From Sedimenticolaceae bacterium (GTDB taxonomy: Bacteria > Pseudomonadota > Gammaproteobacteria > Chromatiales > Chromatiaceae): a DNA stretch of 64,000 nt. The DNA lies in NCBI GenBank assembly GCA_050294655.1, contig JBNKOL010000077.1, positions 22,428-86,427 of the forward strand. The letters run 5' to 3'. The notes under the pieces are model-generated. The model was not told the DNA's origin. It ran no database searches and was given only the letters and a program-made list of their open reading frames with translations. Numbering within the stretch: position 1 is the first letter of the stretch; each line of letters opens with the position of its first letter. A program made the position numbers and the translations under genes. This document shows positions 21,978 to 23,062 of this stretch, piece after piece.

Positions 21978-21996
21978 TGGTATAAAACGCCCCGCC
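21978..21996 (+). promoter_or_regulatory. rpsB extended -10 promoter with GC-rich discriminator
   Basis: TGG-TATAAA followed by ACGCCCCGCC, like the conserved gammaproteobacterial rpsB promoter. Confidence 0.7.
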
Positions 21997-22057
21997 GAAT
22001 CGCAATCGCTTCGGCAAAGCATAACCGCCAGGTGAACAAGGTTTGCCGGCGGCCAAT

Positions 22058-22293
22058 ACACACGCATATCGGCACATAGGCCCGGGTGCCTTCGCAAGAA
22101 GGTCGGACTATGGGATATGTGGAGGCGCTAACCTGGGCGTGGGTCAGGAGACATTCAGGGCTCCAGAGGTATTTCGGATCGAGACGTGACTCGCAGGTGG
22201 TGACATGCCCCTGCCATGAGTCGCAACAAAGAGCCGAAGTGTTGCTGGTGGTCTGAGTGTTTTCTGACCTGCGTTCGGGTTAGTTAAAACCCG
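22058..22293 (+). ncRNA. t44/tff (S2 autoregulatory rpsB leader) interrupted by a 158-nt hairpin
   Basis: ACACACGCATATCGGCACATAGGCCCGGGTGCC...GGTCGGACTATGGGATATGTGGAGGC matches t44; the terminal AAACCC is displaced to 22287-22292. Confidence 0.85.
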
Positions 22294-22312
22294 ATACAAT
22301 CAGGAGTCACTC

Positions 22313-23062
22313 ATGAGTGAAGTATCTATGCGCCAGATGCTTGAGGCTGGCGTGCATTTCGGCCATCAGACCCGTTATTGGAACCCCAAGATGGGTGCCT
22401 ACATCTTCGGCCATCGTAACAAGATCCATATCGTCAATTTGGAGAAGACCCTTCCGCTGTTCAAGGATGCGATGAATTTCATCGGTTCCCTCTCAGCCAA
22501 CGGCGGCAAGGTGCTGTTTGTCGGCACCAAGCGAGCCGCTCAGTCTGCATTGCGCGAAGAGGCCGAGCGCTGTGGCATGCCCTTCATCAACCATCGCTGG
22601 TTGGGTGGCATGCTGACCAATTTCAAGACCATCAAACAGTCGATCAAACGCCTGAAAGAGCTTGAGTCGATGTTCGAGGACGGCAGTGTCGAGCAGCGCT
22701 TCAATAAGAAGGAAGCCCTCGGCCTGCGTCGCGAGCTGGACAAGCTGGAGCGTAGCCTGGGCGGCATCAAAAACATGAACGGTCTGCCCGATGCCCTGTT
22801 CATCATCGATGTGGGGCATGAGAAGAATGCGGTGGCTGAGGCCCGTAAATTGGGCATTCCGGTGATCGGTGTGGTCGATACCAACAACGATCCCGATGAG
22901 ATCGACTATGTAATCCCCGGAAACGATGATGCCATCCGTGCGATCCAGCTCTATGTGCAAGGAGCCTCGGCCGCGATTCTCGAAGGCCGTGCCAGCGCCG
23001 CGAACATGGTCGGCGGCAGCAGTGGTGAGGAGTTCGTTGAGGTCGCGGAAGACGCTTCCTGA
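22313..23062 (+). CDS. rpsB: 30S ribosomal protein S2
   Basis: [38 protein letters not shown]. Confidence 0.99.

What the first reader, a model, noticed from the sequence alone, without database searches (positions are those of the whole stretch)
22127..22284. 158-nt G.U-rich rod hairpin inserted inside the rpsB (t44) autoregulatory leader
Seen: 22127-22177 pairs gap-free with 22234-22284 over 51 positions, with 34 Watson-Crick pairs, 14 G.U pairs, 3 mismatches and no A.C. Further stems (GTGACTC/GAGTCGC, GCAGG/CCTGC) cap it. It sits exactly between the conserved GGAGGC and the AAACCC that directly follows it in ordinary t44 leaders. Knowledge: the S2 operator uses GGGU/ACCC pairing; here CGGGT (22083-87) can pair with ACCCG (22289-93). 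Inference: the insert, perhaps a domesticated MITE, must fold away on the mRNA strand to keep the operator intact. Its own 3' CGGGTT (22276-81) can alternatively capture AACCCG, giving a competing conformer just upstream of the RBS. This could be a new switch, thermosensor or RNase III-processed layer on S2/EF-Ts synthesis. Caveat: strand-biased C>T/A>G mutation of a decaying inverted repeat can also produce G.U bias.
Basis: partly seen in the sequence, partly recalled or inferred. Interest (0 to 1): 0.75.

Follow-up and report, generated by a model that had tools for sequence, protein, structure and literature searches.

The report
Mobile palindrome parked inside S2 operator
A 158-base palindromic repeat, one of about 185 related copies in this genome, sits inside the control RNA in front of the ribosomal protein S2 gene and has mutated only in ways that keep it paired on the mRNA strand, likely because it must fold out of the way; relatives carry shorter versions or none, so it is likely tolerated baggage, not a new switch.

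Summary
The hairpin is real: 34 Watson-Crick, 14 G.U, 0 A.C and 3 other mismatches; z -10.2 on the mRNA strand, -3.9 on the other. It is a TA-flanked, MITE-like palindrome (156 nt plus a decayed 2-nt duplication) from a family of about 185 copies here. It lies in the linker between helix P1 and the ACCC strand of the predicted rpsB (t44) pseudoknot, which is 4-7 nt in 107 of 110 family genomes parsed. It is old: 4 species of one clade carry it at 158, 160, 49 and 26 nt, and two clade members lack it. The G.U bias is specific to this copy (13:0 against 180:193 in 65 other oriented copies), and two-sided changes occur, so selection on RNA pairing is supported. A new switch or thermosensor is not: length is free, the competing fold costs about 5 kcal/mol at all temperatures and is lost in short alleles, and ribosome-site opening is unchanged. 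The element's left end supplies a second, in-register ACC(C/U), and here its right arm is a latent antisense to the ribosome site. No RNA data cover the long allele.

The parts
21978..21986 (+). Predicted extended -10 promoter (TG-n-TATAAA) of rpsB-tsf, followed by a GC-rich tract; start near 21993 inferred
   Evidence: Same 9-mer upstream of the leader in 19 of 19 genus genomes and upstream of tff in the E. coli K-12 record. The consensus scan needs a -35 and did not list it. Start site not mapped.
22041..22125 (+). t44 / S2 operator body (P1, P3) up to the conserved GGAGG
   Evidence: Rfam RF00127, 63.1 bits, cut-off 44, hit 22041-22132; the last 7 nt of the hit are supplied by the insert
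22084..22087 (+). GGGU loop strand of the predicted operator pseudoknot
   Evidence: Sequence; pseudoknot predicted in PMC2704228 section 6; GGU deletion abolishes control per PMC3616713 passage
22126..22127 (+). Left 2-nt flank, read as a decayed TA duplication (CG here, TA in G243)
   Evidence: TA precedes 119 of 159 family end motifs in this genome
22128..22283 (+). MITE-like palindromic element, 156 nt: left end, one core hairpin module, right end; the parent's second module is deleted
   Evidence: Free 263-nt parent in G016 (L079:1501-1763); same end type in own genome at C18:4318-4627
22127..22177 (+). Left arm of the rod
   Evidence: 51 gap-free positions with the right arm
22131..22134 (+). 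ACCU in the element's left end: a second possible partner for the operator GGGU, 5 nt after GGAGG (the native spacing of the G007-type empty site)
   Evidence: Sequence; ACCC or a G.U-compatible variant at the same 5-nt spacing in G243, G244, G254, L047; predicted 7-10 kcal/mol less stable than the closed rod
22177..22234 (+). Family core with internal loops and apical stems
   Evidence: Core pattern has 34 exact matches in this genome, 0 for the reversed control
22234..22284 (+). Right arm of the rod; 22254-22267 is complementary to 22300-22313 (SD to the A of AUG) at 13 of 14 positions, 22276-22281 to 22288-22293
   Evidence: these pairings form only when the left arm is absent; not conserved in other alleles
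22284..22285 (+). Right 2-nt flank (TT), matching the empty site of G007
22289..22292 (+). Native ACCC, 3' strand of the predicted pseudoknot
   Evidence: Unchanged in all five filled leaders read; predicted opening cost 0.3-0.4 kcal/mol here
22302..22306 (+). Shine-Dalgarno AGGAG of rpsB
   Evidence: Sequence, conserved in the genus
22313..23062 (+). rpsB, ribosomal protein S2
   Evidence: TIGR01011, 340 bits
23161..24045 (+). tsf, elongation factor Ts
   Evidence: TIGR00116, 354 bits
21128..21904 (-). map, methionine aminopeptidase, divergent
   Evidence: TIGR00500, 346 bits

Best explanation
A palindromic repeat of a genome-wide, TA-flanked family sits in the short linker of the rpsB operator, and it is likely an old mobile-element insertion that survives because it is predicted to fold into a self-contained rod on the mRNA, which would leave the operator and the ribosome site working as before. 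Shown: family membership, an empty orthologous site, presence in 4 species of one clade at 26-160 nt, and a mutation pattern that keeps pairing on the mRNA strand only. Inferred: the closed rod leaves 5 unpaired linker bases (22126 and 22285-88), the same as the empty site, so GGGU can still reach the native ACCC. Selection likely acts on pairing, not on sequence or length, because an open right arm could capture ACCC and, in this species, the ribosome site. G.U changes pass, A.C changes are mostly removed or compensated, and deletions from the centre shrink the rod to 25-49 nt in several lineages. No new regulatory input is needed.
For: Family of 185 profile hits; free parent with the same ends. 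Among 44 other genus genomes: 3 filled, 37 read as empty, 1 empty by match coordinates, 1 not read, 2 without a match. All filled genomes lie in one clade, support 1.0. G000 against G243, 51 positions: 5 two-sided WC-WC changes, 11 WC/G.U one-sided changes, 4 shared G.U, 1 shared G.G, 0 A.C in either. Against the free copy, 12 of 13 G>A or T>C changes end in a WC pair and none in A.C; the free copy itself has 3 G.U and 3 A.C. Pair 22171/22240 is G-C in G243, G.U in X12 and A-U here. Other oriented copies: 180 G.U to 193 A.C in 65 copies, against 13:0 here, Fisher p 2e-4. Four-fold sites on this branch show C>T 0.119 vs G>A 0.080 and A>G 2/15 vs T>C 14/42, too little bias. Insert identity to G243 is 122/159 (77%) against 847/1410 (60%) at four-fold sites. 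SD-AUG opening is 5.9 kcal/mol with and without the whole insert.
Against: The X12 allele has 2 adjacent-region A.C mismatches (by hand), so purging is not absolute. Two-sided WC changes can also come from arm-to-arm copying at the DNA level; free subfamilies show co-varying arms. The long form, with its core, persists in two distant species while sisters lost it, which a pure burden would not predict. One origin needs two losses (G251, G255) or lateral exchange, and the left flank (TA vs CG) does not follow the tree. The copy was chosen for its G.U bias, so p is post hoc; one other copy of 100 is similarly skewed (C107). All folding is nested-only prediction. No RNA contig covers the long allele.
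Confidence: 0.65

Rival explanations
1. Strand swap. The operator GGGU pairs with the ACC(C/U) in the element's own left end, at native spacing, and the right end pairs with the native ACCC. The rest of the rod is kept closed to protect the ribosome site.
For: 5-nt spacing in all five filled leaders, and native linkers are 4-5 nt in 105 of 110. This strand is made about 150 nt before the right arm. The Rfam model aligns through it. In G244 and G254 the rod is mismatched at just this place. The free element's end resembles the empty target (19 of 31 matches; 3 of 2000 shuffles; 7 of 3760 sampled intergenic sites).
Against: 7-10 kcal/mol less stable than the closed rod here. The left ACCC has changed in 2 of 5 filled leaders while the native ACCC has changed in none.
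Confidence: 0.13
2. Gained regulation. The rod is a switch, a thermosensor or an RNase III target. Cleavage or loss of the left arm would free the right arm to close over ACCC, the SD and the AUG and shut rpsB-tsf off.
For: RNAs whose 5' end lies at 22150-22260 refold so that ribosome-site opening rises from about 13 to 14-19 kcal/mol. The rod has 33 uninterrupted pairs and the genome encodes RNase III. MITE hairpins are cut by RNase III in Neisseria (PMC10969869 passage). The long form is kept in two species.
Against: The anti-ribosome-site fold costs 21-30 kcal/mol in the full leader. It is not beyond shuffles (28 of 200) and is absent in G243, G244, G254 and L047. It is broken at two pairs in X12 (by hand). 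The capture fold shows no temperature trend. G243 (160 nt) and G254 (26 nt) are 90% identical at four-fold sites.
Confidence: 0.12
3. Neutral decay. The insertion disabled or does not affect the operator, and the G.U excess comes from deamination-type mutation of the non-template strand in a highly transcribed leader, with arm-to-arm copying giving the two-sided changes.
For: A>G and C>T outnumber G>A and T>C 33 to 13 against the free copy. C>T exceeds G>A about 1.5-2 fold at four-fold sites of the + strand genes. Length is free.
Against: No bias in 65 other oriented copies. The counter-direction changes land in WC pairs 12 of 13 times. Only 1-3 other mismatches in 51 positions. The operator body still scores 61-64 bits in all filled leaders and native ACCC is unchanged.
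Confidence: 0.1

Closest known systems
t44 / rpsB (S2) autoregulatory leader, Rfam RF00127
   Same: Above-cut-off match, GGGU loop, ACCC strand, map-leader-rpsB-tsf synteny as in E. coli.
   Different: A 158-nt rod in the P1-to-ACCC linker, which is 4-7 nt in 107 of 110 family leaders parsed. The papers read describe variable P2 and P3, not a variable linker.
Bacterial TA-flanked MITEs (ERIC/IRU, Correia/NEMIS, RUP)
   Same: 100-300 nt, non-coding, terminal inverted repeats, TA at the ends, many intergenic copies, long stem-loop, filled and empty sites.
   Different: GC-rich. At least five end types share one internal core. No cognate transposase found. No Rfam, plasmid or E. coli match. The family profile does not detect the palindrome between E. 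coli rpsB and tsf, which I recall as an ERIC; only short words are shared.
Rickettsia palindromic elements inside tmRNA and RNase P RNA
   Same: A palindromic mobile repeat tolerated inside a structured RNA, proposed to be neutral (PMC2229807).
   Different: Here the host is a cis-regulatory protein-binding operator, the site is a nearly length-invariant linker, and an allelic series shows G.U-mediated compensation and collapse.
Correia and ERIC elements that change mRNA stability through RNase III or RNase E
   Same: Co-transcribed MITE hairpin near a gene start.
   Different: No processing data here; the known cases are not inside an autoregulatory operator.

Membership tests
t44 / S2 operator (RF00127) | Covariance-model score above the gathering cut-off | tested here: met
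   63.1 vs 44 bits
t44 / S2 operator (RF00127) | Upstream of rpsB-tsf, same strand | tested here: met
t44 / S2 operator (RF00127) | GGGU loop and ACCC 3' strand able to form the pseudoknot | tested here: met
   22084-87 with 22289-92; ACCC predicted open. Sequence potential only.
t44 / S2 operator (RF00127) | Short single-stranded linker between P1 and ACCC | tested here: not met
   163 nt in sequence, 5 nt if the rod is folded; 4-7 nt in 107 of 110 family leaders
t44 / S2 operator (RF00127) | Repression by S2 (with S1) | not testable with these tools
   Needs reporter assay
MITE | Short, non-coding, terminal inverted repeats | tested here: met
   156 nt here, 263 nt in the free parent
MITE | Many dispersed copies | tested here: met
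   185 profile hits
MITE | Filled and empty orthologous sites | tested here: met
MITE | Target-site duplication (TA) | tested here: inconclusive
   Length arithmetic fits 156+2 and TA precedes 119 of 159 family end motifs, but the flanks here are CG and TT; only G243 keeps the left TA. No other filled/empty pair was compared.
MITE | Autonomous IS with matching ends | tested here: inconclusive
   No IS630-type DDE_3 match, two Y1 genes not flanked by the family, no long element with a transposase; genome 73% complete
ERIC/IRU | Sequence similarity to the 127-bp enterobacterial repeat | tested here: not met
   No blastn match in 5,426 E. coli genomes at E 1; no profile hit to the E. coli rpsB-tsf palindrome
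RNA thermometer / switch | Ribosome site sequestered in a structure that opens or flips with temperature or ligand | tested here: not met
   By prediction only: opening energy within the range of empty leaders at 10-40 C, alternative folds 4.5-30 kcal/mol away
RNase III-processed MITE hairpin | Cleavage ends inside the stem that depend on rnc | not testable with these tools
   Only contigs were available, which show no RNA ends; rnc present

The most novel reading that the evidence does not exclude
The element rewired the S2 operator into a two-register device. Its left end gives the operator an early, in-register pseudoknot strand during transcription. Its right arm is a sequestered antisense to the native ACCC, the SD and the AUG, so S2 capture of the early fold or RNase III cutting could throw a hard off-switch on S2/EF-Ts synthesis: a MITE turned into an expression platform for a ribosomal-protein leader.
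Probability: 0.12. Interest if true: 0.75.

Novelty: new variant of a known kind. Interest (0 to 1): 0.45.

Why it matters
How S2 represses its own mRNA is stated to be unclear, because the ribosome site is not part of the operator (PMC10931766 passage), and the pseudoknot is a comparative prediction. This clade provides a natural series of 0, 26, 29, 49, 158 and 160 nt hairpins in the one linker that is otherwise 4-7 nt. That makes the pseudoknot, and the need for closeness to the ribosome site, directly testable. It is also a clean case of a mobile palindrome passing from DNA symmetry to RNA-only pairing, with a G-C / G.U / A-U series at one pair. Eight literature searches returned no report of a MITE inside an rpsB or other ribosomal-protein operator. 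The library lacks most subscription papers, including the primary rpsB papers.

Tried and rejected
Family-wide G.U bias on the transcribed strand: none (207 vs 229 in 50 co-directional copies; 180 vs 193 in 65 copies, arms only). Gene calls came from my own simple caller (2,659 genes), and 61 of 185 hits were dropped for fewer than 25 aligned pairs, 24 more for short arms. Thermosensor or capture switch: no temperature trend. Conserved antisense to the ribosome site: only in this allele, 28 of 200 shuffles as strong; best intermolecular duplex 68 of 1000. Preference of the family for ends of other copies: 2 of 81 vs 1% background, not supported. ERIC membership: not met. Cognate transposase: not found. 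Rfam match to the free element: only chance-level hits. Plasmid match: none. The same insert elsewhere in the family: none among 200 genomes by DNA (that draw missed G243, G244, G254) and none in 107 of 110 parsed leaders (3 not parsed). Expression: RNA runs X15 and X16 hold a short-hairpin and an empty leader, and no RNA contig covers the long allele. This shows neither expression nor its absence. Earlier scan notes: three look-ups, nothing. Two papers were not held (PMC6900531, PMC2525966).

Full report
Observation. The two arms pair without gaps over 51 positions: 34 WC, 14 G.U, 3 other mismatches and no A.C. The + strand folds far better than shuffles (z -10.2) and than its own reverse complement (z -3.9). 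Rfam t44 covers 22041-22132, and the neighbours are map, rpsB and tsf. The 9-mer TGGTATAAA at 21978-21986 stands upstream in 19 of 19 genus genomes and before tff in E. coli K-12. A reference title seen calls the E. coli rpsB promoter an extended -10. So the hairpin is very likely in the 5' leader; the start is not mapped. Public records sharing the leader's 3' motif are mostly titled Candidatus Thiodiazotropha.

What it is. An iterated profile finds 185 related places in this 73%-complete genome. They are palindromes of about 165-310 nt with at least five end types around one core. TA precedes 22 of 29, 47 of 78, 42 of 43 and 8 of 9 end motifs. A free 263-nt copy in G016 has the same ends and shows that the rpsB copy is left end + core module + right end, with a second module deleted. 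Filled minus empty is 158 nt, which fits 156 nt (22128-22283) plus a 2-nt duplication; G243 keeps TA on the left. No cognate transposase was found. It works like a MITE and meets three of five features tested, two being inconclusive. It is not an ERIC by sequence.

Distribution. Of 44 other genus genomes, 3 are filled, 37 were read as empty, 1 is empty by coordinates, 1 was not read and 2 gave no match. Insert lengths are 158 (here), 160 (G243), 49 (G244), 26 (G254) and 29 (metagenome locus L047, 1 of 4 loci), minus the 4-nt empty spacer. Run contigs add about 27 nt (X6) and 25 nt (X5, same letters as G254, so not independent), and a full-length allele with 21 substitutions and 2 indels in X12, nearly the same in X9 and X14. 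A 9-gene tree puts the filled genomes in one clade, support 1.0, with the empty G255 inside (G251 left out). A 2-gene tree adds the empty G251. The two long alleles share the module-deletion junction, four G.U pairs and a G.G mismatch, so one old insertion with later collapse and loss is the simplest reading. It needs two losses or lateral exchange, and the left flank does not follow the tree. Outside the genus the GGAGG-to-ACCC linker is 4 nt in 100, 5 in 5, 6 in 1 and 7 in 1 of 110 leaders, 3 not parsed. In 104 of 110 parsed for the pseudoknot all have ACCC, and the fifth pair is possible in 46.

Is the G.U bias selection? Other copies show none: 180 G.U to 193 A.C in the arms of 65 oriented copies, against 13:0 here by the same method (p 2e-4, post hoc; one other copy of 100 is 13:1). 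Four-fold sites on this branch give C>T 29/243, G>A 15/188, A>G 2/15, T>C 14/42 (confounded by codon bias). G000 against G243 has 5 two-sided WC changes, 11 WC/G.U changes, 1 two-sided WC-to-G.U change, 2 changes involving a mismatch and no A.C. With the free copy as outgroup, G>A and T>C changes do occur (13, against 33 A>G and C>T) but 12 end in WC pairs and none in A.C (shared changes count twice, and the outgroup is not the true ancestor). One pair is G-C, G.U and A-U in G243, X12 and here. Against this, X12 has 2 A.C with its 14 G.U (paired by hand), and arm-to-arm DNA copying can make two-sided changes. The insert is 77% identical to G243's against 60% for four-fold sites, 67% in rpsB-tsf.

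How it likely works. The papers read give a pseudoknot between the loop and the 3' extension after P1, predicted from alignments (PMC2704228 passages and section 6). They say that deleting the GGU loop abolishes control (PMC3616713 passages) and that the mechanism is unclear (PMC10931766 passages). With the rod closed, 5 linker bases remain unpaired, as in the G007 empty site, and native ACCC opens at 0.3-0.4 kcal/mol. Ribosome-site opening (16.7 to 8.2 kcal/mol, 10-40 C) is within the range of 15 empty leaders (13.2-18.4 to 5.6-9.7). SD-AUG opening is 5.9 with and without the insert. It is a by-product of the element's ends, which resemble the target (19 of 31 matches, 3 of 2000 shuffles, post hoc). 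The left end offers ACC(C/U) 5 nt after GGAGG in all five filled leaders (7-10 kcal/mol less stable here). The right arm, if freed, closes over ACCC, SD and AUG in this allele, but this costs 21-30 kcal/mol in the full leader, is within shuffle range and is not conserved. These hazards are a likely reason for selection to keep the rod shut. All of this is nested-structure prediction; no experiment or RNA end data exist for the long allele.

Comparison and novelty. MITEs co-transcribed with genes and cut by RNase III or E, and Rickettsia palindromes inside tmRNA and RNase P RNA, are known (PMC2229807 parts 1-2 of 3; PMC10969869 and PMC3184786 passages). Eight searches (listings and abstract starts) showed no MITE inside a ribosomal-protein operator. 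Two primary papers were not held, and no supplements were read. Verdict: a real, old, RNA-constrained MITE insertion in the S2 operator, most likely tolerated (0.65); strand swap 0.13, gained regulation 0.12, neutral decay 0.10. New variant of a known kind, interest 0.45.

Noticed in passing
G000 genome-wide; G315, G323, G329, G412, G416, G438, G458: A palindromic repeat superfamily with one conserved internal core but at least five unrelated end sequences. The core pattern hits 13 of 300 other genomes of the class, 7 of them with 2-27 copies, reversed control 0. No Rfam family and no transposase found. Conservation of the core, not the ends, is unusual for DDE-type MITEs.
   Followed up: partly
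G000:C107:25283-25483: A second family copy with a strong skew, 13 G.U to 1 A.C on the predicted mRNA strand; possibly another copy under RNA-level selection.
   Followed up: no
window 22088-22107 (P3 of t44) and L003-L025: Most congeners carry a P3 stem about 40 nt longer than this genome's clade and G007's clade: a second length-variable site in the same operator.
   Followed up: no
window 22025-22052: A GC-closed hairpin between the promoter and t44, kept in shape with changed sequence across the genus.
   Followed up: no
L178 (G095) and L250 (G153): Two family genomes have about 60-70 extra bases between ACCC and the SD of rpsB, downstream of the pseudoknot and unlike this insert.
   Followed up: no
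L254:1200-1458 (E. coli K-12 rpsB-tsf spacer): A long palindrome in the same operon in E. coli, sharing only short words with this family's core; recalled as an ERIC, not annotated in the record.
   Followed up: partly
L117 (G251) leader: Its empty linker is one change from the element's left end, as a deletion between the two AACCC repeats would leave; cannot be told from a never-filled site.
   Followed up: partly
G000:C40:532-885 and C69:20475-20804: Two Y1 (PF01797) transposase genes, one flanked by its own short inverted repeats, neither next to this family.
   Followed up: partly
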